Source: a virus
IMG/VR virus record: IMGVR_UViG_3300035183_000733
Coordinates: 26,496-90,495 of that record
DNA: 64,000 nt
Reading direction: 5' to 3' (one strand)
Position numbers and translations under genes: made by a program. The number at the start of each line of letters is the position of its first letter. The stretch's first letter is position 1. Shown here piece by piece: positions 3,804 through 31,180 of this stretch. The notes beneath the pieces are model-generated. The model saw nothing but the letters and a program-made list of their open reading frames with translations, made no database searches and was not told where the DNA came from.

Positions 3804-3980
3804 ATGGCAAAAACAGCTAAAAAGTCGACAGCAAAAAAAGCTAAGGCTACTAAAAAAGCAAAGCCTGCGGCTAAGAAAGCTGCGGTAAAGAAAACTGCTA
3901 AACCTGCGAAGAAGAGCACGCCGAAGGCGAAGGCTACTCCGAAGGCTGAGCCAGCGAAGAAGGAAACTTCACCTCGCTAA
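3804..3980 (+). CDS. small Lys/Ala-rich basic protein (58 aa), histone H1 / Hc1-like
   Basis: ATG 3804 to TAA 3978-3980; translation is AKKA/PAKK repeats; below the 60-aa cut-off of the ORF track. Confidence 0.5.
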   Translation: MAKTAKKSTAKKAKATKKAKPAAKKAAVKKTAKPAKKSTPKAKATPKAEPAKKETSPR

Positions 3981-4155
3981 GCTCAAAAAGGTTGTGTGAC
4001 GTCGCTGAGGGAACCCAGTGGACACAGAGGATTATCGTTCCATTCCAGATTGACCATCCTCAAGCAACACTCTCCTGAAAACTGGCGTACGCCCGGAGCA
4101 ATCCGGGCCGCGGCCAAGCTGAGTCTCTTAGCCCCCTAAGGCTCAGCGGAACATT

Positions 4156-4285
4156 TGTCGAGTACAACTGGAGGTCAAGCGCTGATCAAAGGTGGTCCTG
4201 ACGGGAAGCAGCAGTCTAATTAACTGCTGGAGCCCGATCAAACTCAGCAAAGGAAGTGCGGGTTCGAATCCCGCCTCGACGGCAG
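4156..4285 (+). ncRNA. tRNA-like 3' element (T-arm GCGGG-TTCGAAT-CCCGC plus 7-bp acceptor) without canonical cloverleaf; possible tmRNA-like or insertion-bearing tRNA
   Basis: perfect T-arm at 4258-4274; 3' acceptor ctcgacg pairs with tgtcgag at 4156-4162 which is 127 nt away; internal 7-bp hairpin 4211-4231; 5' boundary uncertain. Confidence 0.25.
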
Positions 4286-4360
4286 TGCAAGAACTACGGT
4301 GAACATGGGTTCGTCCCTCCGCCGTAGTTTTTAAAAATGAATTAAAAACCGAAACAATTC

Positions 4361-4606: not shown

Positions 4607-4695
4607 GGGTGGATTACCGTAGAGGCCGAACGGTCCAGACTGTTAATCTGGTGTGACGACGAGTCCCATCGCAGGTTCGAATCCTGCTCCGCCCG
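4607..4695 (+). tRNA. tRNA with long variable arm (type-II-like), anticodon GTT (Asn-type)
   Basis: acceptor gggtgga/tccgccc; anticodon arm ccaga-ctgttaa-tctgg; 19-nt variable arm with gac/gtc hairpin; T-arm gcagg-ttcgaat-cctgc. Confidence 0.5.
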
Positions 4696-4731
4696 CAAAA
4701 ATAGGTCCGACACGGGTAGATAGTAAATTAT

Positions 4732-4810: not shown

Positions 4811-4885
4811 TTCTTGGGTGAGTCGGCTGTTTATTACGCGCGCAGCTGACGGTTGGAAGAAGAGGTTCGAGTCCTCCCTAAGGAG
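4811..4885 (+). ncRNA. tRNA-like element, atypical core (acceptor + T-arm with one long internal hairpin)
   Basis: acceptor ttcttgg/ctaagga and T-loop ttcgagt are present but no D or anticodon arm can be drawn; an 8-bp hairpin spans 4822-4850. Confidence 0.3.
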
Positions 4886-5079: not shown

Positions 5080-5163
5080 TGTCCGATCGCCTAATGGCAT
5101 GGCGCCGGGTTTTGGCCCCGGTGGGAAGTAATTCCTGTGTAGGTTCGACCCCTGCTCGGACAA
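5080..5163 (+). tRNA. tRNA with long variable arm, anticodon TTG (Gln-type)
   Basis: acceptor tgtccga/tcggaca; anticodon arm ccggg-ttttggc-cccgg is the same loop as tRNA-Gln(TTG) at 5282; 17-nt variable arm ggaa-gtaa-ttcc. Confidence 0.5.
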
Positions 5164-5281
5164 CAAGACATCGACAGAGGTACTCGTCCGCAGACGTGTG
5201 GAAAAGTGTGTGCTTGCGACCATTAAAGTCTCTGTGTATCCCAATAGGTAGGAAGTAATTACTCTGAATGATTGGGAATAC

Positions 5282-15691: not shown

Positions 15692-15762
15692 GACCCTGTA
15701 GCTCAAGGGTAGAGCGCTGGTCTCTAAAACCGGGGTTGCGGGTTCGAATCCCGTCAGGGTCT
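15692..15762 (+). tRNA. suppressor tRNA, anticodon CTA (reads UAG amber)
   Basis: clean 71-nt cloverleaf: GACCCTG-TA-GCTC-AAGGGTA-GAGC-G-CTGGT-CTCTAAA-ACCGG-GGTT-GCGGG-TTCGAAT-CCCGT-CAGGGTC-T. Confidence 0.85.
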
Positions 15763-15788
15763 CATAAATAAAGTGAAGGAATAAGAAT

Positions 15789-16592: not shown

Positions 16593-16679
16593 GGTCCGAT
16601 AGCTCAGTTGGTTCAGAGCGCCTGTCTTACAAGCAGGAGGCGAAAGGTTCCGCAGGTTCGAATCCTGCTCGGACTACCA
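16593..16679 (+). tRNA. tRNA-Val (TAC) with enlarged 14-nt variable region, CCA encoded
   Basis: acceptor ggtccga/tcggact; anticodon arm cctgt-cttacaa-gcagg; T-arm gcagg-ttcgaat-cctgc; ACCA at 3' end. Confidence 0.6.
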
Positions 16680-19809: not shown

Positions 19810-20037
19810 AGGGTTACAAGATGGACGAAAAGCTGGACCTTGCACAAATATCTGACGACCTGAAGTCCAACTTCAGGTCGTGGGAGCAGGATCACGACAA
19901 CCTGAAAGGTATCTTGCCACCGTGATGTTAGGCGACGTGAACGTCAACGATTGGCTCGTGGAAAATAAGCTGGCGGAAAAAAAACGTATTGATTCGCGGC
20001 ACTTTGATAAAAAGTTTGTACATTTGTGAAACAATTC

Positions 20038-20062
20038 GGATATATAAGATATAAACGATAAC
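20038..20062 (+). promoter_or_regulatory. candidate promoter, CGGATATATAAGATATAAACGATAAC
   Basis: near-identical to the 4361 motif including the preceding aacaattcgg. Confidence 0.45.
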
Positions 20063-20131
20063 ATGAAAAACTTGATACACATACACCATATATGGCAGCT
20101 CTCACAGGGCCCGGCGGTGTATTCTGTATAA
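20063..20131 (+). CDS. short leader ORF (22 aa, MKNLIHIHH..)
   Basis: same promoter / ORF / terminator / tRNA arrangement as at 4464, 16171 and 25742. Confidence 0.25.
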   Translation: MKNLIHIHHIWQLSQGPAVYSV

Positions 20132-20160
20132 AGATCCATGGTTTGATTGATTATACGAAA

Positions 20161-20192
20161 ATCCCCGAGGCCAGAAGTCTCGGGGATTTTTC
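20161..20192 (+). terminator. rho-independent terminator / processing hairpin
   Basis: ATCCCCGAGG-ccagaagt-CTCGGGGATTTTTC. Confidence 0.65.
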
Positions 20193-20196
20193 ATTT

Positions 20197-20267
20197 ACGG
20201 GCGTAGTTCAATGGTAGAATAGCGGTCTCCAAAACCGTTGATGGGGGTTCGAATCCCTCCACCCGTG
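20197..20267 (+). tRNA. tRNA-Trp (CCA)
   Basis: anticodon arm gcggt-ctccaaa-accgt; T-arm ggggg-ttcgaat-ccctc; 4-nt variable loop. Confidence 0.8.
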
Positions 20268-20313
20268 GGAATATTTAAGCTGATACCTCCACGTGGTATA
20301 TTCTGGTAACCCT

Positions 20314-20700
20314 TTATGGGGCTAAATTCAGCTTAGTGATTAGGATATTTTTGATAATATCAAAATACTTAGCACAGTTACGTTCTTTGAAGTATTTTAA
20401 TGAGGAAGTGTCTATTATGACTAATTCTATTCCGCGCTCTAAACAGGCCTGGAATTTATGATGGTCATTGTTACGTATCTGTTCCAATTTAGCTGAACCA
20501 TGGATTAGTTCATAATGGTATATGCCGTTAAGTTCGAACGCGAGTTTCATCGATGGAATATAGATGTCGAGCTCGGCATTGTTGCCAAGTTCGTTCGCGC
20601 GATTGCGGGAGTGCTCTACTACAAAGTGGAAGTCGATGGCGGAGCGTACGAATTCCCGGTAGACATGAACGACAAGGAAGATGTCGGCACTGCTACGTTC
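20314..20700 (-). CDS. DUF559 / Vsr-like endonuclease-fold protein (homing-endonuclease-like); start uncertain
   Basis: LDIYIPSMKLAFELNGIYHYE...KFQACLERGIELVII matches the D-x-Y-x-P..KLAIE-DG..H signature; the listed N-terminus runs into tRNA sequence and is not coding. Confidence 0.4.
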   Translation of the reverse strand, partial: ERSSADIFLVVHVYREFVRSAIDFHFVVEHSRNRANELGNNAELDIYIPSMKLAFELNGIYHYELIHGSAKLEQIRNNDHHKFQACLERGIELVIIDTSSLKYFKERNCAKYFDIIKNILITKLNLAP

Positions 20701-20820
20701 GACGCAGAGATCAAGGCGATAACGTTGATGCGTTACATACGCAAGGCCGACGTAAACACGACTTGCCCCCGGTGTTCCCACCGTGCTGCGGGCAGTCCAA
20801 AGCACTAACGGTGGGACATG

Positions 20821-20905
20821 GGGATTGTAGTCGGTAAGGGATGCCGGCCGGTTTGTGGAGCCGGAATGACAAAGTCTAATGCGGGTTCGAATCCCGTCTT
20901 TCCCC
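20821..20905 (+). ncRNA. tRNA-like element, atypical (good T-arm, weak acceptor, 5-bp stem with 11-nt loop)
   Basis: T-arm gcggg-ttcgaat-cccgt; acceptor gggattg/ctttccc pairs 5 of 7; ccggc/gccgg stem with oversized loop. Confidence 0.3.
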
Positions 20906-20918
20906 CAGGTTTTTTTAT

Positions 20919-20993
20919 GGTAGACGTAGCTCAATTGGTTAGAGCGCCAGATTGTGGTTCTGGAGGTTGTGAGTTCGATCCTCATCGTTTACC
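20919..20993 (+). tRNA. tRNA-His (GTG) with G-1
   Basis: extra 5' G pairs with discriminator C; anticodon arm ccaga-ttgtggt-tctgg; T-arm gtgag-ttcgatc-ctcat. Confidence 0.8.
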
Positions 20994-21065
20994 CAACGTT
21001 CCTCGGGCTATCGCAGCTACCGCGCTGTGTGTGGTCGCACGTGAGATAGGTCAAGGCTCACAAAT

Positions 21066-21134
21066 AGGCGGATACCGTTGGTTGGTAAGTTGCGATTGCA
21101 TCAAACGTGGGTTCGAGCCCCACTCCGCCTACCA
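21066..21134 (+). ncRNA. truncated tRNA-like element (66 nt + CCA): acceptor and T-arm present, no D or anticodon arms
   Basis: acceptor aggcgga/tccgcct perfect; T-arm gtggg-ttcgagc-cccac; ends ACCA. Confidence 0.35.
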
Positions 21135-21520
21135 TTTTTCCGTTTTATAAATTTGCATCATGCAAGAACGGATTGCCGAGATACGAGAACTGCTCTGGAT
21201 ATAGGTGCAGACTCGGTCGGCGCCTCGTCCGCGGCCGGCAGTTGCCATATACCGGTGACCGGGAATATTCGGACAGAATTGGTACCGTACCAGGAGTTTC
21301 TATTCAGGAGCTGCGCGGGTGGACGCCGAGCGTGCAAGCGCCGAACTGTCGTGGCCGATGGAAACATTGAATATCTCGGGACATATTTTTCAAGGCGTGG
21401 ATAACCAACTGGCTCCGTGACTTCGACAATTTCCTCCGTAGGAAGAGAATGTGCGAAATAACGTCTATCTTCGAGAAACGATTGTGGACGCGAACAGCGT
21501 GGAGAACGCGCAAGATATAA

Positions 21521-21590
21521 GGGCCCGTAGCTCAGTTGGTTAGGTTCAACGAGGACTGGAACGCGTTTAAGCCTCGAGTCATCCGGCCCC
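21521..21590 (+). ncRNA. degenerate tRNA-like element (canonical 5' half GGGCCCGTAGCTCAGTTGGTTAG, non-canonical 3' half)
   Basis: 5' acceptor gggcccg pairs with ccggccc at 21583-21589 in 6 of 7 positions; no standard T-loop. Confidence 0.3.
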
Positions 21591-21635
21591 AACCGTGGTG
21601 AGGCGCACGATGGATAGGTCAAGGCCATCAAATTT

Positions 21636-21726
21636 CGGCAGGTACCGTTGGTGTCTTATACACACTATACACGTAGCTGGTATGTTGAGATCACATCAAA
21701 CGTGGGTTCGAGTCCCACCCTGCCGA
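21636..21726 (+). ncRNA. tRNA-like element paralogous to 21066..21134 with a ~25-nt internal insertion
   Basis: acceptor cggcagg/cctgccg perfect; shares TACCGTTGGT...ATCAAACGTGGGTTCGAG(T/C)CCCA with 21066..21134. Confidence 0.35.
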
Positions 21727-22177
21727 CTTTTCTAATTCGTTCTTTTTATTTAATTTTGCCATTATGTGCAGGCTCGAAGAAATCAGATCATCGCTAATGG
21801 CTGAGGCCAGGGCCCAGGTGGACCGCATGCGTATAAACGTGAGCGTTCCTACGATGGACGGAAGGCCGACGAGCATGTCACGCAGCTGTGTATCGCGAAC
21901 GAGAAGAAGTACAAGCTGAACCAGACATTCGACTCCATAGCGCTTCCGAAGCTGACGGTGGACTCGGTTGTTAACCCGTTCGCAGAGGAGGCCAAGCAGA
22001 TAAATAATGCAGCAGGAGGGCGAGTTCTTCAAGGCGTGGATACACAGCTGGCTGCGGTTTCCTTACGCGAGTCAGGAATATCCGTGCAAAAATGAAGTGG
22101 TGGATATATTGGCGATCTTTTGCCCTAACACAAAATGGACAGAAGCAAAAAATAAAACGCGCAGATGATTATTTACC

Positions 22178-22252
22178 GGTCCCTTAGCTCAGGTGGTTTA
22201 GAGCAAATCACTCATAATGATAAGGTCGGGGGTTCAAGTCCCTCAGGGACCA
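22178..22252 (+). tRNA. tRNA-Met (CAT) (elongator Met or Ile-lysidine type)
   Basis: anticodon loop ctcataa; T-arm ggggg-ttcaagt-ccctc; acceptor ggtccct/agggacc. Confidence 0.75.
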
Positions 22253-22271
22253 CAATTAGAAAAGCAAAAGC

Positions 22272-22577
22272 ATGTCAGATTTTAAAGTAGAGCGGACTTA
22301 CAAAGAAGTCGGCGTCATTAAGAAGCAGGGCACAGACCTAACACACCTCGTAACAAAGTTCAATGGTCCCCTCGATGGTCTTAAAACAATGACCGTCAAA
22401 CCGGGCGTGGGCGAGTACTCGTGGGTGCAGAGCCTGATAGTCCCGCTCAAGAGCAACGAGACTATATACATTCACCCGGACCAGACCGGCGTCGGCGTCG
22501 GATTCGTCCGCATAATTCATTCCCATTTAAAGGCTATCGCCGTATTCCACAAGTCACATTTCGATACCATATTATGA
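22272..22577 (+). CDS. hypothetical protein
   Basis: stop overlaps the SET gene start (ATGA). Confidence 0.45.
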   Translation: MSDFKVERTYKEVGVIKKQGTDLTHLVTKFNGPLDGLKTMTVKPGVGEYSWVQSLIVPLKSNETIYIHPDQTGVGVGFVRIIHSHLKAIAVFHKSHFDTIL

Positions 22578-23092
22578 AGTGCGTGAGAGTCGGCAAGTCG
22601 GCGATTGTGGGCAAGGGACTGTTCGCGTGCGAGCCCATAAGACCAGGAGACGAAATCGCGGAATACGTCGGCCGCAAGCTAACCAACAAAGAATTCGACA
22701 TCTTGTTCTCCGCGGGCATGTGGCTCTATGCAGTTTCCGTGCCGAACGGCGTTATCGACGCCGCGGGGGCGGAGTGGGACGGTTATCCTGCAAAGTTCAG
22801 CAACGACGCCATGGGGCTAACAAGAACCGGCGCAAGGAACAACGCGACATTCAGGTACTCCGGCAAGAGGGGCAACTACCGGGTGCACATCGTGGCGACC
22901 AGGTACATAAAATCCGGCGACGAGATATTCACTTCATACGGCCGGAGCTATTGGAGCAATTTTAAAAATGAGCAAGAACTAAATAGAGCAGCCTGCATTA
23001 CTACGGTCTCGGTGAGGACCGGGAGAAGGATCCCCTCGACGACCCCCACTTCTACGACAGGATGCGGAGCATCGGATACACCAAGCGTGTGA
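22574..23092 (+). CDS. SET-domain protein lysine methyltransferase
   Basis: GKGLFACEPIRPGDEIAEYVG, FSNDAMG..NATF (NHSC-like), YIKSGDEIFTSYGRSYW; aligns along the viral vSET / SET core; start reset to ATG 22574. Confidence 0.8.
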   Translation: MKCVRVGKSAIVGKGLFACEPIRPGDEIAEYVGRKLTNKEFDILFSAGMWLYAVSVPNGVIDAAGAEWDGYPAKFSNDAMGLTRTGARNNATFRYSGKRGNYRVHIVATRYIKSGDEIFTSYGRSYWSNFKNEQELNRAACITTVSVRTGRRIPSTTPTSTTGCGASDTPSV

Positions 23093-23660
23093 TACCGTTG
23101 CCGATGAGGTGCGTCTGTATGTATATTACGAGCGACAAACCGGTTCGTCCATTGATGAATTGAAACCGGTATCCGGCCCGCGCAAGCATGAAATGAACGT
23201 GTATACTGCTCTCGAGTATGTGTTCACCAAGAAGGTGCTTAATCACGAGGAGCTTCGCATATCCATAAAAGAATGATAGGAGATATTTGTTTTTGGACGA
23301 CCAGAGACAGCCGGATGAAGTTGTAGGTTACGAAGGCATAGAATGGAGTCGTAAAAAAACGGTCACGAATTCGAAGATTACCTGAACCAGAACGGTATCC
23401 CCGACGTCATATCGTTTGACCACGACCACGACGACGAACATTACGACATAGACTGGGAGAAGGTATACTTCTTCGGGGAGCTATATTCGTACAAGGAGGA
23501 CACCGGTTTGGACTGCCTTAAGAAGCTCATCCGCAGGCTCACAATGAAGGAACCGCATCCGGACAACTGGCCGAGGTGCACGTCGCATTCACTCAATTCG
23601 GTAGGCCGGGCCGAAATAAACAAACTCCTCGAAACTTGGTCGTTTCCTCAATTTGGCCAG

Positions 23661-23735
23661 GATATATAAGAAAACAACGCCGGAATTCAAGTCAACGCCG
23701 GAAGCACTTTCTCCTATCCGGACAGGATATATAAG
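23661..23735 (+). promoter_or_regulatory. two tandem copies of candidate promoter motif GATATATAAGAAAA, 65 nt apart
   Basis: copies at 23661-23674 and 23726-23739; gene ATG at 23756. Confidence 0.4.
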
Positions 23736-23755
23736 AAAAATATCAATCCTTAAAA

Positions 23756-24235
23756 ATGAAAATATTCAGGTTCGAAGAGTTCTCGGTCAACGAGAAACTA
23801 ACCGACGCTGGTCAGGACTATGTGTCGAAAAAGATCGCGAAGCTCCGCGGTGAGGGTAAGGGCCCAAAGCAGGCGGCGGCCATAGCGTACAGCTACGCAA
23901 GGCGCAAGGGATACAAGGTACCCGCGAAGAAAAACGAGTCGGACAACCCGCTCAACGACGATAACTCTACGCTCGACATCAAGACGATGACGTCGCTCCA
24001 GTTCTACAAACTGATAGACCTGCTCGAGGCGGACATCACCGCATACGGGCAGGAGGATCTCCAGTACTACGAGGAGATGACTGGGCTCGACACAGGGACC
24101 CTGCTCGACCTCTACACAACATACGGTTACAACCTGCATAAATACGCAGAGACCGAGAAGCTCAAGAGGGCGTATATGAGTCACGCGGGTAAGACCTGGG
24201 AGCAAATTAAAAAAGAAGCCGAAGAGGCCGAGTAA
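23756..24235 (+). CDS. hypothetical protein
   Basis: ORF. Confidence 0.5.
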   Translation: MKIFRFEEFSVNEKLTDAGQDYVSKKIAKLRGEGKGPKQAAAIAYSYARRKGYKVPAKKNESDNPLNDDNSTLDIKTMTSLQFYKLIDLLEADITAYGQEDLQYYEEMTGLDTGTLLDLYTTYGYNLHKYAETEKLKRAYMSHAGKTWEQIKKEAEEAE

Positions 24236-24237
24236 TC

Positions 24238-25038
24238 ATGGCAACAAGAAAAGCATTCCAAGGGGAGAACTACAAGAGGTCCGGCGAGTACGTAGGCAAC
24301 TACAACGGCGGCAGATCCGAGGTTCAGGAAATGACGAGCACCCTCAAGAGAAGGAACGTAAGGTCCATGGCGGGCAACAGCTCATACATCGGCAAGCGCG
24401 TCCTGCTCATACACAACAACGACCTCGAGAAGGCGGTCAAGGTGCTGAAGGAGTTCTACCCGAAGCACTACGCCACAGAGCTCGCGGCAAATCTTAAGAG
24501 GGATGTTGATACAGACAAGAAGATGGGTGTGTTCGAGAGTGGGATGAAGAACCTCATGACCTTTGAGAATTACTCACATAAAAAGGCAGTATTCGGTGAT
24601 TTTTCCAAGAAGGACCAAGAGCAGATCGACTACTTTATAGAGAAGTTTGCGACCAAGATGGGTGGCACCACGAGACAATCAGCCGCATGGTGGGTCGATG
24701 GCATAACAGAGATCAGCGACGATATCAAGCGTGCGGTATGGGCCGGGATACAGGAGTACATACCCAAGAGGCCGTTCCCTCTTAATAAGGCAGACTTACC
24801 TGAGTGGACAAATGAGTCCGAGCTTAAGGATGACAAGGCAGACGAGACTCACATCTCATTGACCGAGGATGACTTCCGTGCACTCGTTGCCGGCGAAATA
24901 ATTACTCCTGAGGACTTCCCGCCGCACCTGGACAAGCTAAAGCTCGCGCTGCAGGACATCGGCCAGGATAACATGATCCGTATAATAACGGACGAGATGT
25001 ACAAGGCGCGCAAAGCCGGAGATAAAAATATGAACTAA
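24238..25038 (+). CDS. hypothetical protein
   Basis: ORF 3 nt after the previous stop. Confidence 0.55.
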   Translation: MATRKAFQGENYKRSGEYVGNYNGGRSEVQEMTSTLKRRNVRSMAGNSSYIGKRVLLIHNNDLEKAVKVLKEFYPKHYATELAANLKRDVDTDKKMGVFESGMKNLMTFENYSHKKAVFGDFSKKDQEQIDYFIEKFATKMGGTTRQSAAWWVDGITEISDDIKRAVWAGIQEYIPKRPFPLNKADLPEWTNESELKDDKADETHISLTEDDFRALVAGEIITPEDFPPHLDKLKLALQDIGQDNMIRIITDEMYKARKAGDKNMN

Positions 25039-25111
25039 CCGGGAATCCTGAACCACTCTCACGGCAGAACACGGATGGAAGCACAGGAGCTACTCATAAA
25101 ATAATCATTAC

Positions 25112-25360
25112 ATGAATAAGATAAAGGACGCGCTATACTGGATGACGCACACGAAGCTCGGGTGGCTTTTAATATCGTTCGTGTGGTTCGCCGTGTTCAT
25201 GGCCATAGACAATAACGTGGAAGGATCCTGGGCTTTCTGGACAGCGATGCCCGCCCTCGCATACATAACGGGGCTGACACTCGTGATGATTGCGTACGCC
25301 TGGGTGATAAACCCCATAAGAGAGCACAAGGAAAACAAGAGGCTGCGGGAGGGAAAATAG
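25112..25360 (+). CDS. small membrane protein (2 TM), TAG stop
   Basis: hydrophobic stretches; stop codon TAG at 25358. Confidence 0.5.
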   Translation: MNKIKDALYWMTHTKLGWLLISFVWFAVFMAIDNNVEGSWAFWTAMPALAYITGLTLVMIAYAWVINPIREHKENKRLREGK

Positions 25361-25433
25361 TTTTCTGACGGTAGCGTACGGTTAGAATAATTGTGTTATC
25401 TTTGTATCTGTAACTAATAAAACTGTAAGTAAA

Positions 25434-25682
25434 ATGAAAAACATCTTCGTAAGCAGCTTGCCTTTCAAGCTGACTGAGAGCGAGCTTCAGGCCGCTTTCG
25501 AAAAGCATGGTGAGGTAACCTCTGCCAAAATTATCAAGGACCGCGAAACCAACCGTAGCAAGGGATATGGGTTCGTAGAGATGTCTGACGATGAAGCCGC
25601 AACAAAGGCTATCGCAGCTCTTAACGGTTCTGAGTTTGGTGGTCGTTCCATCATCGTTAATGAGGCACGCCCGAAAGCATAA
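25434..25682 (+). CDS. RRM-type RNA-binding protein
   Basis: RNP-2 IFVSSLP and RNP-1 KGYGFVEM; overall like cyanobacterial Rbp proteins. Confidence 0.85.
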   Translation: MKNIFVSSLPFKLTESELQAAFEKHGEVTSAKIIKDRETNRSKGYGFVEMSDDEAATKAIAALNGSEFGGRSIIVNEARPKA

Positions 25683-25727
25683 TAAAGAAAAAACAAAGTA
25701 ATTGCAGCCGAAACAAAACGCGCCGCA

Positions 25728-25741
25728 GATATATAATGTAC
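25728..25741 (+). promoter_or_regulatory. candidate promoter, GATATATAATGTAC
   Basis: truncated version of the GATATATA motif ahead of a leader ORF. Confidence 0.35.
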
Positions 25742-25822
25742 GATGAAGCAAATGATTAACATAGTTCGAATTAGCAGAAGGCGCTCAGACGTCCTGTCCG
25801 GATTATGTCCAATCGTAAGCTG
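25742..25822 (+). CDS. short leader ORF (26 aa, MKQMINIVRIS..)
   Basis: nucleotide-level similarity to the 16171 leader (ATGAAGCAAATGATTAACATAGT vs ATGAAGAAGATGATCAACATAGT). Confidence 0.3.
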
Positions 25823-25844
25823 ATAACATCGCTTTTCTTTTGGG

Positions 25845-25880
25845 ACAAGAAACCCGGACCTAATCGTCCGGGTTTTTTAT
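25845..25880 (+). terminator. rho-independent terminator / processing hairpin
   Basis: AAACCCGGAC-ctaatc-GTCCGGGTTTTTTATTTT. Confidence 0.65.
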
Positions 25881-25887
25881 TTTACAC

Positions 25888-25961
25888 TGGTGTGTGACCA
25901 AGCTGGTTAAGGCACCTCCCTGATACGGAGGAAATCGTGGGTTCGACTCCCACCGCACCAA
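25888..25961 (+). tRNA. tRNA-Ile (GAT)
   Basis: anticodon arm cctcc-ctgatac-ggagg; T-arm gtggg-ttcgact-cccac. Confidence 0.75.
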
Positions 25962-25966
25962 CAAAT

Positions 25967-26019
25967 AGTCGCTTAGCTCAGTTGGTTGGTCCCCAGTTCG
26001 AGTCTGGAAGCGACTACCA
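25967..26019 (+). ncRNA. tRNA minihelix-like element (acceptor + D-region + T-arm + CCA, no anticodon arm)
   Basis: AGTCGCT-TA-GCTCAGTTGGTTGGT-CCCAG-TTCGAGT-CTGGA-AGCGACT-A-CCA; perfect 7-bp acceptor. Confidence 0.35.
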
Positions 26020-26085
26020 AGCCAGTCAATATGCGGGATGGCTTGCATTGTTACCGGACATTAAACCACCCGGGCGTTAGAGAAT

Positions 26086-26159
26086 GCACGCGTAGATCAA
26101 CTGGATAGATCACCTGACTACGGATCAGGAGGCTGGGGGTTCGAATCCTTTCGCGTGTA
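26086..26159 (+). tRNA. tRNA-Arg (ACG)
   Basis: D-stem gatc/gatc; anticodon arm cctga-ctacgga-tcagg; acceptor gcacgcg/cgcgtgt. Confidence 0.75.
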
Positions 26160-26221
26160 CAAAATGCCTCAGTAGTCCCGTCGGCTTCGGAACCGATAGG
26201 GCAGAATATGAATTAAGATAC

Positions 26222-26294
26222 GGTCCCGTAGCTCAGCGGATAGAGCATTTGCCTTCTAAGCAAAGGGTCACTGGTTCGAATCCAGTCGGGATCA
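26222..26294 (+). tRNA. tRNA-Arg (TCT)
   Basis: anticodon arm tttgc-cttctaa-gcaaa; T-arm actgg-ttcgaat-ccagt. Confidence 0.8.
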
Positions 26295-26369
26295 CAAAAA
26301 GTAAAGTTATGAAACTGAACATCAAAAAAAGTAAAACAGATCCCTAAGGAAGTCAATTCCAAGTTCGGA

Positions 26370-26714
26370 GTGTGCATATTCGGGGAACCGGATGCTGAGG
26401 TGTCCACATGGATTGCAGCGCACGGTTTCGAGGTAGAAAAAGTTGGTCCTTATACGAATGTGTACATCGACAAGGACATCGATGAGGTGTTCGAGCCGGC
26501 GGGGAAGTTCCAGTACATGGACGGGTTCAGCCCGAACATGAACAAGCACCTGCACGTTGGCCATCTGTCCAACCTGGTGCTCGCAAAGGCGTTCCTCGGC
26601 ATGGGTGTCACCAATGGCACGGTGGCCATACTTGGCGACACTCTCGAGGGCGATGTTTCCAAGGACGAGGCGCTCGATAAGTTCAAGTTGTACGAATGGT
26701 CGTCAACCGTGTAG
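26370..26714 (+). pseudogene. arginyl-tRNA synthetase remnant (part of N-terminal domain plus HIGH region only)
   Basis: YMDGFSPNMNKHLHVGHLSNLVLAKAF matches the ArgRS D-Y/F-S-A/S-P-N-x-A-K-E-M-HVGHLRS catalytic-core start; only 114 aa, no rest of the enzyme. Confidence 0.6.
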
Positions 26715-27167: not shown

Positions 27168-28595
27168 TTATGCGTACATCTCTTTCAAAGTTATGAATCG
27201 CCTGTGGTCGCCACAGGCGACGAGCAGGTCCTCCTTCTTGAACTCGGAAGGGTGGTGGTACCCGCAAGCGTTGGACATCTCGTGGATCTCTTTGCGCAGC
27301 TGCTTGATGTAGTTAGCTGCGCGGACGGATTTGAGCGTCGGGTCTATGCCGTTCTGCAGCCACTTGTTCTGTGTGGCCACGCCAGACGGACACCTGTTCG
27401 TGTGACAAACCTGTGCCTGGATACAACCGATGGACATCAGCGCTTCCCTACCGACGTTAACCATATCACAGCCGAGCGCAAATGCCTTTATGGCATTGGC
27501 TGGAAGCCCGAGCTTGCCAGACCCGATGAACACTACGTTGTCGAGCGCCGGGTAAACTCTGAATATTTTTATGATGCTGTGTATTGCCTCGTTGAACGGC
27601 AGAGACAGGTGGTCTGTGAATGATGGTGGTGCTGCACCAGTGCCGCCCTCGCCGCCGTCTATTGTGATGAAATCCGGGCCGAAACCGGACATGGCCATTT
27701 GCGTGGCGAGCTCCTCCCAGTCTTTTACGCTTCCAATCGCCGCCTTTATACCGACAGGCAGACCGGTTGCGTTTGCTATCTCTTCGATAAAGTTTATCAT
27801 GCTTGTCACGTCCTTGAACGCGCTGTGAGTGCTTGGCGACACGGCGGCCTTGCCCATTTCGATGCCCCTGGCGTCTGCGATCTCCTGTGTCATCTTCGCG
27901 GCCGGCAGAATTCCTCCCTTGCCGGGCTTCGCGCCCTGGGACAGCTTTATCTCGATTGCCTTTATGCAGGGATTATCTTGCACGAGTTTCTTCAGCTTCT
28001 CGAGCGAGAACTTACCCTTCTCGTCGCACACTCCGAAGTATCCAGTTCCGAACTGGAACACCACGTCAGCCCCTTGCTTGTGATACACTGACAATCCGCC
28101 CTCCCCAGTGTTGTGGTAACAACCAGCGAGCTTAGCTCCGCCGTTAAGTGACTCTACAGCCTTTGCCGATAACGCGCCGAAGCTCATGCCAGATATGTTC
28201 ACTATAGAGTTTGGTGTGTATGGTTTTGCACGCTTGCCTTTGCCGAGCTGTTTCTTGCATGGCAGGTGACCGATGTTGTCGGAGTGCACCGGCATCATCT
28301 TGTGCTTTATGATTATGTGACCGGGTTCGTTGAAGTCCATGTCTGTACCGAACCCTGTGAGGTTGTTCTCATCCTTCGCCGAGGCATATATCCAAGCTCT
28401 GTGTCGCCTCGAGAATGGAAGCTCCTCTCTATTGTTGGCGATGAAGTACTGCCGGATTTCTGGACCTATCTTCTCGAACAGATAACGGATGTGTCCTATC
28501 ACCGGGAAGTTGTGGGTTATTGCGTGTCTGTTTTGCATTATGTCGCGTATGGCAACTACGGCCAGGAAAGCGACGAACAATAATAAATATAACAT
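27168..28595 (-). CDS. glutamate-synthase (GltB) FMN-domain-like protein with N-terminal TM anchor
   Basis: ISGMSFGALS, KLSQGAKPGKGGILP, IDGGEGGTGAAP, FIGSGKLGLP motifs typical of GltS domain-2 family proteins. Confidence 0.8.
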   Translation of the reverse strand: MLYLLLFVAFLAVVAIRDIMQNRHAITHNFPVIGHIRYLFEKIGPEIRQYFIANNREELPFSRRHRAWIYASAKDENNLTGFGTDMDFNEPGHIIIKHKMMPVHSDNIGHLPCKKQLGKGKRAKPYTPNSIVNISGMSFGALSAKAVESLNGGAKLAGCYHNTGEGGLSVYHKQGADVVFQFGTGYFGVCDEKGKFSLEKLKKLVQDNPCIKAIEIKLSQGAKPGKGGILPAAKMTQEIADARGIEMGKAAVSPSTHSAFKDVTSMINFIEEIANATGLPVGIKAAIGSVKDWEELATQMAMSGFGPDFITIDGGEGGTGAAPPSFTDHLSLPFNEAIHSIIKIFRVYPALDNVVFIGSGKLGLPANAIKAFALGCDMVNVGREALMSIGCIQAQVCHTNRCPSGVATQNKWLQNGIDPTLKSVRAANYIKQLRKEIHEMSNACGYHHPSEFKKEDLLVACGDHRRFITLKEMYA

Positions 28596-29689: not shown

Positions 29690-31180
29690 TTATCTGTGTA
29701 TTGATAGACCAGCAATATAATTGTTTACGGCGAATACGGTATCGTTGTACAGCTCGGCAACCTTGTCGGAATCCGGCTCGTCCATCAGGTCGGCCTGCTC
29801 GAACGCGGTGCCGAGGTCCTTCAACTTCTGTGCTGCGTCGTCCATGAGCTTGTTCAGCTCCACCTTGCCGTACCGTATACTCTTCAGGTACTCGGCCTCC
29901 GGCCTCCTCACTATAATGCCGCGGCCGGCGGCGATGTCCTCGCTCATGTATATGAGGCGCATGCAATGCAGCATGTTCTTGCCGTCGATCTTCTGGTTGT
30001 GTCCCTCAACGTCGATCCACCTCGCCTCGTTACGCTCGCGCCTCCAGGTCATGTACCGGTTGTACAACTTGCAGTGGGACATGAAACCGTCCTTGTTGTA
30101 ACTCATGTAGCACATTGGTACTGCATCCTTAGGCGTCTTGCTTAGACGGATAGTATCCGAGTCGTCGAGCACGATGCCCTTGTACCCGAGCATCTTCAAT
30201 CCGTGTGATTTGACCCATTCAAGGGTCCGCTCCGGATCATCGGCGAAGTACGCACTGAACATGCCTCCGTTTAATTCCCCGAGATACCCACGGACTACAT
30301 CGTTGTCCTTTATATCTGTCGCAGGTCGAGCCCCCTCTATTATCTCTTTCAGGTACACGATGGTATGTGCGAGTCGGTCGTAATATACGCCATACATGTC
30401 GCGCATGTGCTCCACAGCGTTCAGCGCGCAGAACCTCTGTTCCATGCCTCTTTCGGAGAGCCACTGCTCTATGGGAACACTACCCTGACCAACGAACGTG
30501 TAGCAGAAGTCGAGTGGACCCTTGCGTTCCATCTTCTCCTTCTCCCAGTTGTTCAGCTTGTCCTGACCGTCGGCCTTGCGTATCTGACTCTCCCCGTAAC
30601 CGAGGAACGCCTTGTAACAAAGCTTCGACAGAAACACTTCCGGGCGTTTGAGCAATATGTCCATCTCTGGGTGTTTGTAAACGAGGCAGTCGTCCGGTAT
30701 GTCGAAAACCTCGAGCATGTTTGGGTTGTTCACCGCGAGCAGCGATATGAACTTGCGCATCGAGTAGTAAGTGGTCTCCTCGTTGGTTTCCATGTTCTTC
30801 TCCTTTATTTCCTCCCAGTCGGGGTTGAAATCGAACATGGAGTAGTACGAATCCGGGAATATGAACACGGCCTTGTAGTCGGTGTCGGACGTCGGCACGT
30901 TGGTGCCGTATGCCCTGCTGCCGGTTATGTACTTTAGCACGATGTACTGCTCGATGTCCTTTGACGTGAGGGCCTTCCGGAAGTTGTGCCTCGCGTGCCC
31001 GTACTCGAATCTGTACTTGTCGCCAAGGTAATCGACGTAGACGAACCCATCGAGTATGTCGGTAATGGGGAACGCGTAGTCCTTCTTCTCGAACACCCTC
31101 GTGCTGTCGTCGGTCACGCACAGTGCGGACATCTTATTCTCCACCTTGTAGAACTCTCCTATTTTGAGATTTATTAGCAT
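29690..31180 (-). CDS. nucleotidyltransferase (Pol-beta superfamily, GS...SDxD type), 496 aa
   Basis: YITGSRAYGTNVPTSDTDYKAVFIF is the minimal NTase signature (hGS-x9-13-SDhDh). Confidence 0.6.
   Translation of the reverse strand: MLINLKIGEFYKVENKMSALCVTDDSTRVFEKKDYAFPITDILDGFVYVDYLGDKYRFEYGHARHNFRKALTSKDIEQYIVLKYITGSRAYGTNVPTSDTDYKAVFIFPDSYYSMFDFNPDWEEIKEKNMETNEETTYYSMRKFISLLAVNNPNMLEVFDIPDDCLVYKHPEMDILLKRPEVFLSKLCYKAFLGYGESQIRKADGQDKLNNWEKEKMERKGPLDFCYTFVGQGSVPIEQWLSERGMEQRFCALNAVEHMRDMYGVYYDRLAHTIVYLKEIIEGARPATDIKDNDVVRGYLGELNGGMFSAYFADDPERTLEWVKSHGLKMLGYKGIVLDDSDTIRLSKTPKDAVPMCYMSYNKDGFMSHCKLYNRYMTWRRERNEARWIDVEGHNQKIDGKNMLHCMRLIYMSEDIAAGRGIIVRRPEAEYLKSIRYGKVELNKLMDDAAQKLKDLGTAFEQADLMDEPDSDKVAELYNDTVFAVNNYIAGLSIHR

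What the first reader, a model, noticed from the sequence alone, without database searches (positions are those of the whole stretch)
20821..21726. Family of degenerate tRNA-like elements (acceptor + T-arm minihelices, some ending in CCA) interleaved with real tRNAs
Besides 16 canonical tRNAs there are at least six elements (4811..4885, 20821..20905, 21066..21134, 21521..21590, 21636..21726, 25967..26019) with a perfect 7-bp acceptor stem, a canonical GTTCGA T-arm and a discriminator base, sometimes with encoded CCA. None has a usable D or anticodon arm. 21066..21134 and 21636..21726 are clear paralogs (shared TACCGTTGGT...ATCAAACGTGGGTTCGAG-CCCA) that differ by a roughly 25-nt internal insertion. 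25967..26019 is a 50-nt minihelix plus CCA. They could be decaying tRNA genes. They could equally be functional tRNA mimics: CCA-adding or RNase P/Z substrates, primers, or decoys for host anticodon nucleases such as PrrC, RloC or VapC. A Pol-beta-type nucleotidyltransferase is encoded at 29690..31180.
Basis: seen in the sequence. Interest (0 to 1): 0.65.

Follow-up and report, generated by a model that had tools for sequence, protein, structure and literature searches.

The report
Phage tRNAs with a rewired core
The six "degenerate tRNA-like elements" in this huge-phage tRNA cluster are a mixture: three are decayed gene copies and three are conserved unusual RNAs, one of which belongs to a phage-wide family of tRNAs that I could not find described, in which half of the D arm sits after the anticodon arm.

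Summary
All six elements exist, but they are not one family of anticodon-less minihelices.

- **21636-21726** has a normal anticodon stem-loop (UAU, Ile). It has orthologs in at least 14 other phage contigs. It belongs to a family of 61 distinct sequences with Ile, Arg and CAU anticodons.
  - Architecture: acceptor, U8-A9, 3-4 nt strand X, anticodon arm, strand Y, D-loop consensus (U-A-R-Y-N-G-G), T arm.
  - X pairs with Y and the pairs covary. R15 covaries with the base before the T stem (Levitt pair: 36 of 38 and 22 of 23). All 13 Arg members carry A20.
  - I read it as a tRNA with a permuted core that probably decodes AUA, which makes up 57% of Ile codons here.
- **20821-20905** is a conserved tRNA-His(GUG) with a long variable arm.
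- **4811-4885** is a conserved 8/4 tRNA-like RNA with an invariant 13-nt loop. Its function is unknown.
- **21066-21134** is the 21636 type minus 25 nt, a deletion and not an insertion.
- **21521-21590** is a decayed tRNA-Met copy.
- **25967-26019** is an internally deleted tRNA.

The first two of these three lie in a decaying tandem duplicate. No paper describing the permuted architecture was found. Expression and charging are untested.

The parts
21636..21726 (+). Core-permuted tRNA-Ile(UAU) gene. Acceptor 5' strand 21636-21642; U8 A9 21643-21644; strand X (CCGU) 21645-21648; position-26 equivalent 21649; anticodon stem 21650-21654 with 21662-21666; loop CUUAUAC 21655-21661 (anticodon UAU 21657-21659); linker 21667-21670; strand Y (ACGU) 21671-21674; D-loop-like AGCUGGUA followed by a small extra hairpin and the linker 21675-21701; T arm 21702-21718; acceptor 3' strand 21719-21725; A73 21726. 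No CCA is encoded.
   Evidence: Rfam tRNA model scores 33.1 bits by skipping the D arm. My model R1 scores 84.4 bits against 33 bits or less for canonical tRNAs. There are 14 orthologous contigs. Covariation is shown.
21066..21134 (+). Truncated paralog of the permuted tRNA. A 25-nt deletion between TGGT repeats removes most of the anticodon arm, strand Y and the start of the D loop. The 7-bp acceptor stem and 5-bp T stem are perfect, followed by A73 and an encoded CCA (21132-21134).
   Evidence: Alignment A1. R1 scores it 36.6 bits and Rfam 27.6 bits, below the gathering score. The acceptor stem differs from that of 21636 by three compensatory pairs (read).
21521..21590 (+). Decayed paralog of tRNA-Met(CAU) at 22178-22253. 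The D-arm 5' half and D loop are intact. The anticodon arm and T arm are lost, and only 5 acceptor pairs remain.
   Evidence: Alignment with three tRNA-Met genes. It occupies the same position in duplicate A that tRNA-Met occupies in duplicate B. It was not detected by ARAGORN, Rfam or my T-arm scan.
20995..21590 (+). Tandem duplicate A, decaying. It holds a conserved upstream box, the truncated permuted tRNA, a remnant of a 179-aa ORF and the decayed tRNA-Met.
   Evidence: only residues 106-129 of the L002 ORF are recognisable, at 21371-21442.
21585..22253 (+). Tandem duplicate B. It holds the upstream box, the intact permuted tRNA-Ile(UAU), the 179-aa ORF broken into at least three frames, and an intact tRNA-Met(CAU) at 22178-22253.
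   Evidence: L002 carries the same unit once, with an intact ORF.
20821..20906 (+). Non-canonical tRNA-His(GUG) with a long variable arm (GAC-AAA-GUC hairpin), G-1:C73, tandem U.U mismatches in the acceptor stem and a 3-4 bp D stem. It lies next to the canonical tRNA-His at 20920-20994.
   Evidence: ARAGORN. Rfam 30.4 bits. Orthologs in L007, L047, L075 and L050 have variable-arm stems of different sequence and a 5-bp anticodon stem.
4811..4885 (+). Conserved tRNA-like RNA with an 8-bp acceptor stem (4811-4818 with 4877-4884), a 4-bp T stem (4862-4865 with 4873-4876), an 8-bp hairpin (4822-4829 with 4843-4850), an invariant 13-nt loop UUUAUUACGCGCG, a GGUUGGAAGAA segment and discriminator G 4885. 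It has no 7-nt anticodon loop.
   Evidence: Orthologs lie in L141 (1935-2012) and L139 (7983-8076, with a 16-nt extra hairpin). All 60 cells are paired, 3 pairs changed on both sides and 4 on one side.
25967..26019 (+). Internally deleted tRNA. It keeps the acceptor stem (7/7), the D-stem 5' strand and D loop joined directly to GGUC and the T arm (4 bp plus C.A), then A73 and an encoded CCA. It starts 5 nt after tRNA-Ile(GAU).
   Evidence: Read. Only an identical copy was found, in L001. Relatives L002 and L004 carry a 93-95 aa ORF at this position instead.

Best explanation
The window comes from a 374-kb phage contig with tRNA arrays. The six flagged elements fall into two groups.

**Conserved, probably functional non-canonical RNAs**

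- **21636-21726** is a gene for a tRNA-Ile(UAU) with a permuted core.
  - Shown: the RNA forms a three-way junction of acceptor stem, T arm, and an anticodon arm extended by a 3-bp helix X-Y.
  - Inferred: X, just after U8-A9, plays the role of the D-stem 3' strand. Y, after the anticodon arm, plays the role of the D-stem 5' strand.
  - Y is followed by a normal D-loop sequence (U13 A14 R15 Y16 N G18 G19) and a linker that ends in the Levitt partner, position 48.
  - Inferred: these pieces can rebuild the usual L shape through U8-A14, R15-Y48 and G18G19 with the T loop.
  - Inferred: the RNA is charged with isoleucine and reads AUA, the phage's main Ile codon.
  - More weakly inferred: phages keep such rewired copies beside canonical isoacceptors because the altered core escapes a tRNA-targeting nuclease or another tRNA-directed attack.
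- **20821-20905** is a conserved tRNA-His(GUG) with a long variable arm.
- **4811-4885** is a conserved 8/4 tRNA-like RNA of unknown role.

**Decay products of local duplication and microhomology deletion**

- These are 21066, 21521 and 25967.
For: **Orthologs.** The inner 55 nt are nearly identical in L002, L007 and 12 metagenome contigs, while the acceptor and T stems are fully replaced by compensatory changes.

**Family.** Model R1 separates 28 members (43 bits or more) from canonical tRNAs (33 bits or less). It finds 42 more in IMG/VR contigs of up to 508 kb. That gives 61 distinct sequences with anticodons GAU, UAU, UCU, UCG, ACG and CAU.

**Covariation on the independent IMG/VR set**:
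- 94.5% of cells are paired against 58% in shuffles.
- X-Y pair types are CG35/AU1/UA1, GC18/AU11/CG8 and AU13/GC11/CG4/UA3.
- The Levitt position shows AU24/GC13/other1.
- The same holds on the first set (AU12/GC10/other1).
- RNAalifold predicts the X-Y helix de novo.

**Identity signal.** The base after G18G19 is A in 13 of 13 Arg-anticodon members and U in about 27 of 29 Ile(GAU) members. That A20 is the ArgRS identity element comes from my own knowledge.

**Anticodon loops.** All loops have U33 (a search requirement; not imposed on the hits), and position 37 is a purine: A in all but one member, which has G.

**Codon demand.** AUA is 366 of 647 Ile codons in 22 window genes. 21636 is the only UAU anticodon in the window.

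**Distribution.** Across 185,579 species genomes the Ile(GAU)-type pattern found only 2 true members, both in tRNA arrays on short MAG contigs.

**Decay.** Frameshifted ORF copies and the decayed tRNA-Met lie in the same duplicate as 21066.
Against: - There are no expression, processing, CCA-addition or aminoacylation data.
- The L-shape and the assignment of X and Y to D-stem strands are inferred from sequence signatures, not from a 3D model.
- The proposed fold is not the single-sequence minimum free energy structure. It lies a median 4.3 kcal/mol above it, and only 6 of 61 sequences recover 90% or more of the model pairs.
- The X-Y helix has only 3 reliable pairs, and the fourth position is mostly mismatched.
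- The alignments used for counting were partly fitted to the model. However, MAFFT alignment A3 gives the same picture, and the Levitt pair was not part of the model.
- Permuted copies usually sit beside a canonical tRNA with the same anticodon (L002 10143 and 10230; L002 11024 and 11104; L031 3931 and 4010). They could therefore have a non-decoding role.
- L006 carries a canonical tRNA-Ile(UAU) at the syntenic site.
- The other 310 kb of this phage were not seen and may encode a canonical tRNA-Ile(UAU).
- 21066 keeps a perfect acceptor stem through three compensatory differences and has a CCA, so calling it a pseudogene is not certain.
Confidence: 0.62

Rival explanations
1. All six elements are simply decaying tRNA pseudogenes left by duplication in a fast-evolving tRNA array. 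None has a function.
For: The region does contain decay. The tandem duplicates have frameshifted ORFs. There is a decayed tRNA-Met copy, two internal deletions, and a truncated, frameshifted ArgRS-like gene at 26310-26714. L006 has a canonical tRNA-Ile(UAU) at the syntenic position.
Against: 21636, 20821 and 4811 are conserved in other phages, and every stem is maintained by compensatory changes. The 21636 type occurs as 61 distinct sequences with six anticodons and shows tertiary-pair covariation. Neutral decay does not produce that pattern.
Confidence: 0.04
2. The permuted RNAs are tRNA mimics that are not used in translation. They would be decoys or inhibitors that soak up host tRNA-targeting nucleases, synthetases or modification enzymes. 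Alternatively they could be regulators, made beside the canonical phage tRNA that does the decoding.
For: They usually sit next to a canonical tRNA with the same anticodon. The topology is unprecedented for a ribosomal substrate. An abstract in the library states that all known bacterial tRNAs are canonical cloverleaves (PMC11551756). Phage tRNAs are known to counter tRNA-cleaving defence systems (PMC11464382 and PMC13056530, listed). An RlaP RNA-repair-type enzyme is encoded at 29690-31180.
Against: A decoy for an anticodon nuclease needs only the anticodon stem-loop. These RNAs also conserve the 7-bp acceptor stem, the discriminator, U8, A14, the 15-48 pair, G18G19 and the isoacceptor-specific A20, which is the full set needed for charging and L-shape. 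In this window the permuted gene is the only UAU anticodon, although AUA is 57% of Ile codons.
Confidence: 0.22
3. The elements act as RNA-processing punctuation. In this reading they are RNase P and RNase Z or CCA-enzyme substrates that cut polycistronic transcripts or stabilise 3' ends. This applies mainly to the anticodon-less minihelices 21066 and 25967.
For: Both minihelices keep perfect acceptor stems and carry an encoded CCA, which only 3 of 20 called tRNAs have (read). 21066 differs from its paralog by three compensatory acceptor pairs. The elements lie between genes in the same orientation.
Against: No ortholog of 21066 or 25967 was found in any relative. 21066 lies in a segment where everything else is decaying. 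The idea does not explain the conserved anticodon loops, the D-loop consensus or A20 of the 21636 family.
Confidence: 0.08
4. The 'permuted' structure is an artefact. Under this view the RNA is a D-armless tRNA with a long unstructured variable region, and the X-Y and 15-48 signals come from alignment fitting and shared ancestry.
For: The counts were partly made on model-fitted alignments. The sequences are related. The helix is only 3 bp. The single-sequence minimum free energy fold prefers other structures.
Against: A MAFFT alignment made before any model gives the same covariation. Sliding the partner by 1-3 columns drops pairing from 94% to 30-47%. The 15-48 pair was not in the model and still shows AU24/GC13/other1. 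Changes occur within ortholog groups, for example L007_4368 against the other UAU members and L092 against L086. The IMG/VR search pattern did not constrain X, Y or position 48.
Confidence: 0.04

Closest known systems
Canonical bacterial and phage tRNA (Rfam RF00005)
   Same: It shares the 7-bp acceptor stem, discriminator, 5-bp T stem with a TTCRA loop, and a 5-bp anticodon stem with a 7-nt loop holding U33 and R37. It also shares U8, A14, R15, G18G19, the 15-48 covariation and its location in a phage tRNA array.
   Different: No D hairpin lies between positions 9 and 26, and there is no variable loop between the anticodon and T arms. The strand that pairs with the D-stem 5' strand lies upstream of the anticodon arm, and the D loop lies downstream. 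The result is a three-way junction instead of a four-way junction. ARAGORN did not call 21636, and Rfam aligns it only by skipping the D arm.
Allo-tRNAs and (8/4) tRNA-Ser / tRNA-His of bacteria and phages (Mukai et al. 2017, PMC5389517)
   Same: These are also non-canonical tRNAs found in metagenomes and phage tRNA clusters. The 8-bp acceptor stem with a 4-bp T stem matches element 4811. The long variable arm on a class I anticodon matches 20821 and the long Asn, Gln and Val tRNAs here.
   Different: Allo-tRNAs keep the normal order of arms. The (8/4) tRNA-His described there lacks G-1 and has A73 or U73, whereas 20821 has a 7-bp acceptor stem with G-1:C73. Element 4811 has a 13-nt loop and no recognisable anticodon arm.
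D-armless mitochondrial tRNAs (reviewed in PMC7609411)
   Same: There is no D hairpin in the usual place, and the RNA is still presumed to work as a tRNA.
   Different: Mitochondrial D-armless tRNAs are shortened and lose the D loop to T loop contact. The phage family is longer (76-91 nt) and keeps a full D-loop consensus, G18G19 and the Levitt pair at a new position.
Circularly permuted tRNA genes of the red alga Cyanidioschyzon merolae (own knowledge; the term also appears in papers listed)
   Same: The gene order of tRNA segments differs from the canonical order.
   Different: There the 3' half precedes the 5' half in the gene, and processing through a circular intermediate restores a normal tRNA. 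Here the acceptor strands are at the ends as usual and only the inner blocks are swapped. No circular permutation or known processing step could restore the canonical order, so the mature RNA itself would be rewired.
Phage tRNAs that neutralise tRNA-cleaving defence systems (for example T5 tRNA-Lys against PARIS, PMC11464382)
   Same: These are extra phage-encoded isoacceptors that differ from the host tRNA. They offer a plausible reason for keeping structurally divergent duplicates.
   Different: The known cases differ by point changes in an otherwise canonical tRNA. No nuclease, target or resistance has been shown for the family described here.

Membership tests
tRNA (functional decoder; Rfam RF00005) | 7-bp acceptor stem plus discriminator, directly stacked on a 5-bp T stem with a T-psi-C-type loop | tested here: met
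   21636: 7/7 and 5/5 pairs, loop TTCGAGT, A73. Across the family the acceptor stem is 99.6-100% paired and the T stem 95-97%.
tRNA (functional decoder; Rfam RF00005) | 5-bp anticodon stem with a 7-nt loop, U33 and purine 37 | tested here: met
   GGUGU / CUUAUAC / ACACU. All 61 family members have a 7-nt loop with U33 and a purine at 37 (A in all but one, G in that one).
tRNA (functional decoder; Rfam RF00005) | D stem-loop hairpin between positions 9 and 26, and a variable region between the anticodon and T arms (cloverleaf order) | tested here: not met
   Only 5 nt separate A9 from the anticodon stem. The Rfam alignment deletes the D arm and inserts 31 nt before the T arm.
tRNA (functional decoder; Rfam RF00005) | Core tertiary signature: U8, A14, R15 paired with Y48, and G18G19 | tested here: met
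   U8, A9 and A14 are invariant. The 15-48 position shows AU24/GC13/other1 and AU12/GC10/other1. GG is present in all members, at a permuted position.
tRNA (functional decoder; Rfam RF00005) | Score at or above the curated threshold, or a call by tRNA finders | tested here: inconclusive
   33.1 bits against a gathering score of 29 when a small region is searched. It is not reported in the whole-window gathering run and not called by ARAGORN. ARAGORN does call some family members elsewhere.
tRNA (functional decoder; Rfam RF00005) | Transcribed, processed, CCA-tailed, aminoacylated and used on the ribosome | not testable with these tools
   No expression or biochemical data are available. The indirect support is A20 in 13 of 13 Arg members and AUA at 57% of Ile codons.
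tRNA pseudogene | Loss of essential parts, no conservation in relatives, and surrounding decay | tested here: met
   Met for three elements. 21066 has lost its anticodon loop, has no ortholog and sits in a decaying duplicate. 21521 has lost its T arm. 25967 has lost its anticodon arm and was found only in an identical contig. The feature is NOT met for 21636, 20821 and 4811.
Class II-like tRNA (long variable arm) | Extra stem-loop between the anticodon arm and T arm, with the other arms in normal order | tested here: met
   20821 has a 16-nt variable region with a GAC/GUC stem. Orthologs have GAU/AUC, GGCA/UGCC and AUCU/AGAU stems. The anticodon is His, which is normally class I.
Allo-tRNA / (8/4) tRNA (Mukai 2017) | 8-bp acceptor stem plus 4-bp T stem | tested here: met
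   4811: 8 + 4 pairs, all paired in three orthologs, and the eighth pair changes G-C to U-A.
Allo-tRNA / (8/4) tRNA (Mukai 2017) | Anticodon arm with a 7-nt loop, and a long variable arm | tested here: not met
   4811 has an 8-bp hairpin with an invariant 13-nt loop and no variable-arm hairpin. L139 alone has a 16-nt insert.
tmRNA / Y-RNA-like (YrlA) tRNA mimics | Score at or above the Rfam gathering threshold | tested here: not met
   YrlA scores 25.4 bits against 69, and tmRNA 9.7 bits against 47. Both are only partial matches to T arms.

The most novel reading that the evidence does not exclude
Large phages, here probably one infecting Bacteroidota, encode a whole class of translationally active tRNAs whose mature form has a rewired core. 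The D-stem strands are swapped around the anticodon arm, giving a three-way junction that still builds the L shape. These tRNAs are kept beside canonical isoacceptors because the new topology makes them invisible to a tRNA-targeting nuclease or modifier. At least the Arg members would be served by a dedicated phage mini-ArgRS encoded directly downstream.
Probability: 0.35. Interest if true: 0.9.

Novelty: new variant of a known kind. Interest (0 to 1): 0.78.

Why it matters
tRNA architecture is one of the most conserved structures in biology. [quoted passage not shown]

A natural, widespread family that keeps every tertiary signature but changes the strand connectivity of the core would have three consequences:
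- It would show that the L shape can be reached by a different topology.
- It would give tRNA engineers a new orthogonal scaffold.
- It would explain why standard tRNA finders undercount phage tRNAs.

It also offers a concrete, testable case for how phages diversify tRNA structure, possibly in the arms race around tRNA-cleaving defence systems. For annotation, the practical lesson is that 'degenerate' tRNA-like hits in phage arrays should not be dismissed as pseudogenes without comparative analysis.

Tried and rejected
**Searches that found nothing useful**
- BLASTN of 20000-26400 against GenBank phages returned only generic tRNA matches and no relative.
- An exact 24-mer of the T-arm region found nothing in IMG/VR.
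- Single-protein locus searches with the 266-aa protein and with GluRS found nothing in IMG/VR. Relatives came instead from the protein database plus contig look-up.
- The 22-mer of the UAU type found nothing in 185,579 species genomes.
- The loop of 4811 (TTTATTACGCGCGCA) found 13 IMG/VR hits, all unrelated coding sequence.
- A search for targets complementary to the 4811 loop in the window gave no more hits than chance.
- Rfam found no family for the large conserved non-coding region upstream of the first tRNA array.
- A sigma-70 promoter and terminator scan around 19.9-22.4 kb gave no more sites than shuffles.
- Six literature searches and two full-text look-ups found no description of this architecture. 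Subscription-only papers are not covered.

**Tests that were uninformative or unsupportive**
- Single-sequence folding is not significant against shuffles and does not recover the model fold.
- Reading TAG, TGA or TAA as sense gave no clear sign of stop-codon recoding in this window.

**Ideas considered and rejected**
- A tRNA with an intron or a circularly permuted gene: no excision or circularisation restores the canonical order.
- Y-RNA or tmRNA mimics: the scores are far below threshold.
- An attP-type tRNA fragment: the elements have both acceptor strands and lie in arrays of a large, apparently lytic phage.
Full report
**Context**

The window is part of a 373,759-bp JGI metagenome contig. 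It encodes:
- collagen-like tail fibres, topoisomerase II and a UvrD-type helicase;
- a GluRS;
- a glutamate-synthase-domain protein;
- an RlaP-type nucleotidyltransferase.

It is therefore a huge phage. Its GluRS is closest (54-57% identity) to GluRS of Bacteroidia and Flavobacteriales, which suggests a Bacteroidota host.

ARAGORN finds 20 tRNA genes, all on the + strand between 4.6 and 26.3 kb. Rfam finds 18 at the gathering threshold. The T-arm motif GGTTCGAR occurs 24 times against 5.8 expected.

**Check of the six elements**

- 21066-21131 and 21636-21726 have 7/7 acceptor pairs and 5/5 T-stem pairs.
- 25967-26019 has a 7/7 acceptor stem, a 4-bp T stem and an encoded CCA.
- 20821-20905 is called tRNA-His(GUG) by ARAGORN and scores 30.4 bits with Rfam. 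It has a D arm, a 5-bp anticodon stem and two U.U mismatches in the acceptor stem.
- 21636-21726 scores 33.1 bits. The Rfam alignment shows a normal anticodon stem-loop (GGUGU / CUUAUAC / ACACU, anticodon UAU), no D arm and 31 extra nucleotides before the T arm.
- 21521-21590 has neither a T stem nor a full acceptor stem.
- 4811-4885 has an 8-bp acceptor stem and a 4-bp T stem.

Single-sequence folding energies are not distinguishable from shuffles.

**A decaying tandem duplication**

Segments 20995-21590 and 21585-22253 are paralogous units (72% column identity; repeats D11, D14 and D17). Each unit has an upstream box, a tRNA-like element, an ORF and a tRNA-Met-type gene.

The relative L002 is 70% identical in a neighbouring protein. 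It has the unit once, with an intact 179-aa ORF.

In the window:
- That ORF is split over at least three frames in copy B, and is reduced to residues 106-129 in copy A.
- The tRNA-Met of copy A (21521-21590) has lost its anticodon and T arms.
- The tRNA-like element of copy A (21066-21134) equals that of copy B minus 25 nt lying between two TGGT repeats.

The long form is the one conserved elsewhere. The difference is therefore a deletion that removed the anticodon loop, not an insertion.

25967-26019 is likewise a canonical tRNA with an internal deletion from the D loop to the variable loop. It was found only in an identical contig, and L002 and L004 have a small ORF at that place.

One caveat applies to 21066. 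Its acceptor stem differs from that of 21636 by three compensatory pairs and is still perfect, and it ends in CCA. It was therefore under selection until recently, or still has some minihelix function.

**The 21636 element is a member of a conserved family**

Orthologs occur in L002 (1066-1156), in the IMG/VR contig L007, and in 12 metagenome contigs. The inner part is almost invariant. The acceptor and T stems are replaced by fully compensatory sequences, for example CGGCAGG/CCUGCCG against UGUGUAG/CUACACA.

The same contigs carry similar genes with other anticodons. All share this order:
1. acceptor 5' strand (7 nt);
2. U-A;
3. a 4-nt strand X;
4. one nucleotide;
5. anticodon stem-loop;
6. 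3-5 nt;
7. a 4-nt strand Y;
8. A-R-Y-N-G-G;
9. a linker of 4 to about 20 nt;
10. T arm;
11. acceptor 3' strand;
12. discriminator.

A covariance model built from 15 sequences scores 28 members at 43-98 bits and canonical tRNAs at 33 bits or less. The window's 21636 scores 84.4 bits and 21066 scores 36.6.

An IMG/VR scan used a pattern that fixed only the GAU loop, 'TAR', 'GG' and the T loop. Together with the model it gave 42 more members (38 distinct), from contigs of up to 508 kb. In all there are 61 distinct sequences: GAU 29, UAU 14, UCU 8, CAU 5, UCG 3 and ACG 2.

In one genome for each of 185,579 bacterial and archaeal species, a related but stricter pattern found 28 sites. Only two were true members, both in tRNA arrays on short MAG contigs. 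As far as these searches show, the family is phage-associated.

**Structure**

On the independent IMG/VR set:
- 94.5% of cells are standard pairs, against 58% after shuffling and 31-44% after sliding the partner.
- The X-Y helix has three good pairs: CG35/AU1/UA1, GC18/AU11/CG8, and AU13/GC11/CG4/UA3 with 6 unpaired.
- The fourth position is mostly mismatched, as 13:22 often is in tRNAs (own knowledge).

The first set gives the same result, both on a MAFFT alignment made before any model and on the model alignment. RNAalifold predicts the X-Y helix on its own.

After Y comes an almost invariant U-A-R-Y-N-G-G, which is the D-loop consensus 13-19. The R covaries with the base immediately before the T stem. 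The counts are A/U 24, G/C 13, other 1, and A/U 12, G/C 10, other 1. Switches occur inside ortholog groups. This is the behaviour of the Levitt pair 15-48 (own knowledge), and that pair was not part of the model.

The base after GG is A in 13 of 13 members with Arg anticodons, and U in nearly all Ile(GAU) and all CAU members. A20 is the major ArgRS identity element (own knowledge).

**My reading (inference)**

- X is the functional equivalent of D-stem strand 22-25.
- Y is the equivalent of strand 10-13.
- The block [D 5' strand + D loop] has been moved behind the block [D 3' strand + anticodon arm].

In a canonical tRNA, A9 lies against 12-23, positions 44 and 45 lie against 26 and 10-25, and A21 and 48 lie against 8-14 and 15 (own knowledge). 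Each new connection therefore joins residues that are already neighbours in space, and an L shape is plausible.

A route by internal tandem duplication followed by loss of the outer halves is plausible in arrays full of tandem isoacceptors.

**Function**

I think decoding is the most likely role, for three reasons:
- The full aminoacylation and L-shape signature is conserved.
- Anticodon loops are regular.
- AUA is 57% of Ile codons in 22 genes of the window, while 21636 is the only UAU anticodon seen in the window.

Why a rewired copy is kept beside canonical isoacceptors is open. Examples are L002 10143 beside 10230, L002 11104 beside 11024, and L031 4010 beside 3931. Escape from a tRNA-directed nuclease or modifier is the obvious hypothesis, given the recent literature on tRNA-cleaving defence systems and phage counter-tRNAs (papers listed). 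Nothing here tests it.

In L002 and L004 the permuted tRNA-Arg(UCU) is followed by a 389-aa class I synthetase core with HVGH and KMSSR motifs and weak ArgRS similarity. In the window that tRNA is absent, and the gene is frameshifted and truncated.

Evidence against or missing:
- There are no expression or charging data.
- The model fold lies a median 4.3 kcal/mol above the single-sequence minimum.
- L006 has a canonical tRNA-Ile(UAU) at the syntenic position.

**The other two conserved elements**

20821-20905 has orthologs in four IMG/VR contigs. They have 5-bp anticodon stems, GUG anticodons and a 3-4 bp variable-arm hairpin whose sequence differs in each. The tandem U.U in the acceptor stem is shared with L047. 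It is a class-II-like tRNA-His beside a canonical one.

Similar long versions of Asn, Gln and Val tRNAs occur in the window and in relatives.

4811-4885 has orthologs in L139 and L141 (GluRS 77-79% identical). All 20 pairs are kept, three through double changes and four through single changes. The 13-nt loop UUUAUUACGCGCG is invariant. With only two independent lineages this is modest evidence. I have no mechanism for it.

**Comparison with what is known**

The closest known things are:
- canonical tRNAs;
- allo-tRNAs and (8/4) phage tRNAs (PMC5389517);
- D-armless mitochondrial tRNAs (PMC7609411);
- the circularly permuted tRNA genes of a red alga (own knowledge).

None has the inner blocks swapped in the mature RNA. 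Six full-text searches and two paper look-ups found no description of this architecture. The library lacks most subscription journals, so prior description cannot be excluded.

**Verdict**

- The permuted-core family is, as far as I can tell, a new variant of tRNA.
- I rate the structural family at about 0.9 probability and its use in translation at about 0.6.

Noticed in passing
window 3975-4290 (+); also L139 6965-7280 and L141 945-1260: A conserved non-coding region of at least 300 nt lies between a Lys/Ala-rich small ORF and the first tRNA array. RNAalifold gives 79 pairs, 8 of them with compensatory changes. The 3' part forms a tRNA-like module: GUCGAG pairs with CUCGAC around a T arm at 4257-4273, and there is a 6-7 bp hairpin with a conserved loop UCUAAUUAA. 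ARAGORN calls no tmRNA and no Rfam family matches it.
   Followed up: partly
window 4607-4696, 5080-5164, 16593-16679: tRNAs with the class I anticodons Asn(GUU), Gln(UUG) and Val(UAC) carry long variable regions (84-90 nt in total), each next to a normal-length isoacceptor. The same pairs recur in relatives (L139, L141, L011) and in many IMG/VR arrays, which also have long Cys, Thr, Met, Glu, Asp and Trp tRNAs.
   Followed up: partly
window 26310-26714 (+); L002 11104-12363; L004 8002-9264: Relatives encode a permuted tRNA-Arg(UCU) followed by a 389-aa minimal class I synthetase with HVGH and KMSSR motifs and weak ArgRS similarity. In the window the tRNA is missing. The gene has a frameshift in an A7 run and stops matching after residue 128.
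   Followed up: partly
window 15692-15763 (+): A tRNA with anticodon CUA (amber suppressor type; ARAGORN labels it Pyl) scores 67.7 bits. TAG is the rarest stop (9 of 81 long ORFs). Reading TAG as sense does not clearly lengthen ORFs in this window, so recoding is unresolved. L085 carries a similar tRNA.
   Followed up: partly
window 4362, 9335(-), 16148, 20038, 23660, 23725: The motif GGATATATAR occurs 6 times against 0.18 expected, mostly shortly upstream of genes. Variants appear in L004 and L139. It may be a phage promoter or another regulatory box.
   Followed up: partly
window, 22 long genes: Codon usage is strongly skewed. AUA is 57% of Ile codons and AGG + AGA are 53% of Arg codons. 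These match anticodons that the phage tRNA arrays and the permuted family supply (UAU, UCU).
   Followed up: partly
window 29690-31180 (-): The 496-aa nucleotidyltransferase matches RlaP (an RNA repair pathway family) and phrog_388, not a CCA-adding enzyme model. No RNA ligase or kinase-phosphatase partner was looked for.
   Followed up: no
window tRNA genes generally (for example 4696-4700, 5164-5168, 26160-26164, 26295-26299) and most loci: The discriminator is very often followed by CAA(A) and not by CCA. Only 3 of 20 tRNAs encode CCA. This conserved trailer may be a processing signal.
   Followed up: no
window 22579-22965, 25435-25683, 27168-28595(-): A SET-like protein (Pfam SET is recorded on the L002 and L004 homologs, not on the window ORF), an RRM-type RNA-binding protein and a glutamate-synthase-domain protein are encoded around the tRNA arrays. 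The SET and RRM genes are syntenic in L002, L004 and L006.
   Followed up: no
L008-L019, just upstream of the permuted tRNA-Ile(UAU): In the 12 metagenome contigs a terminator-like hairpin (CAGUC...GACUGGGUUUUUUU) sits 4-14 nt before the gene. In the window and in L002 it is replaced by a conserved box, ATAGGTCAAGGC..CAAAT, which is also present before the truncated copy at 21046-21065.
   Followed up: no
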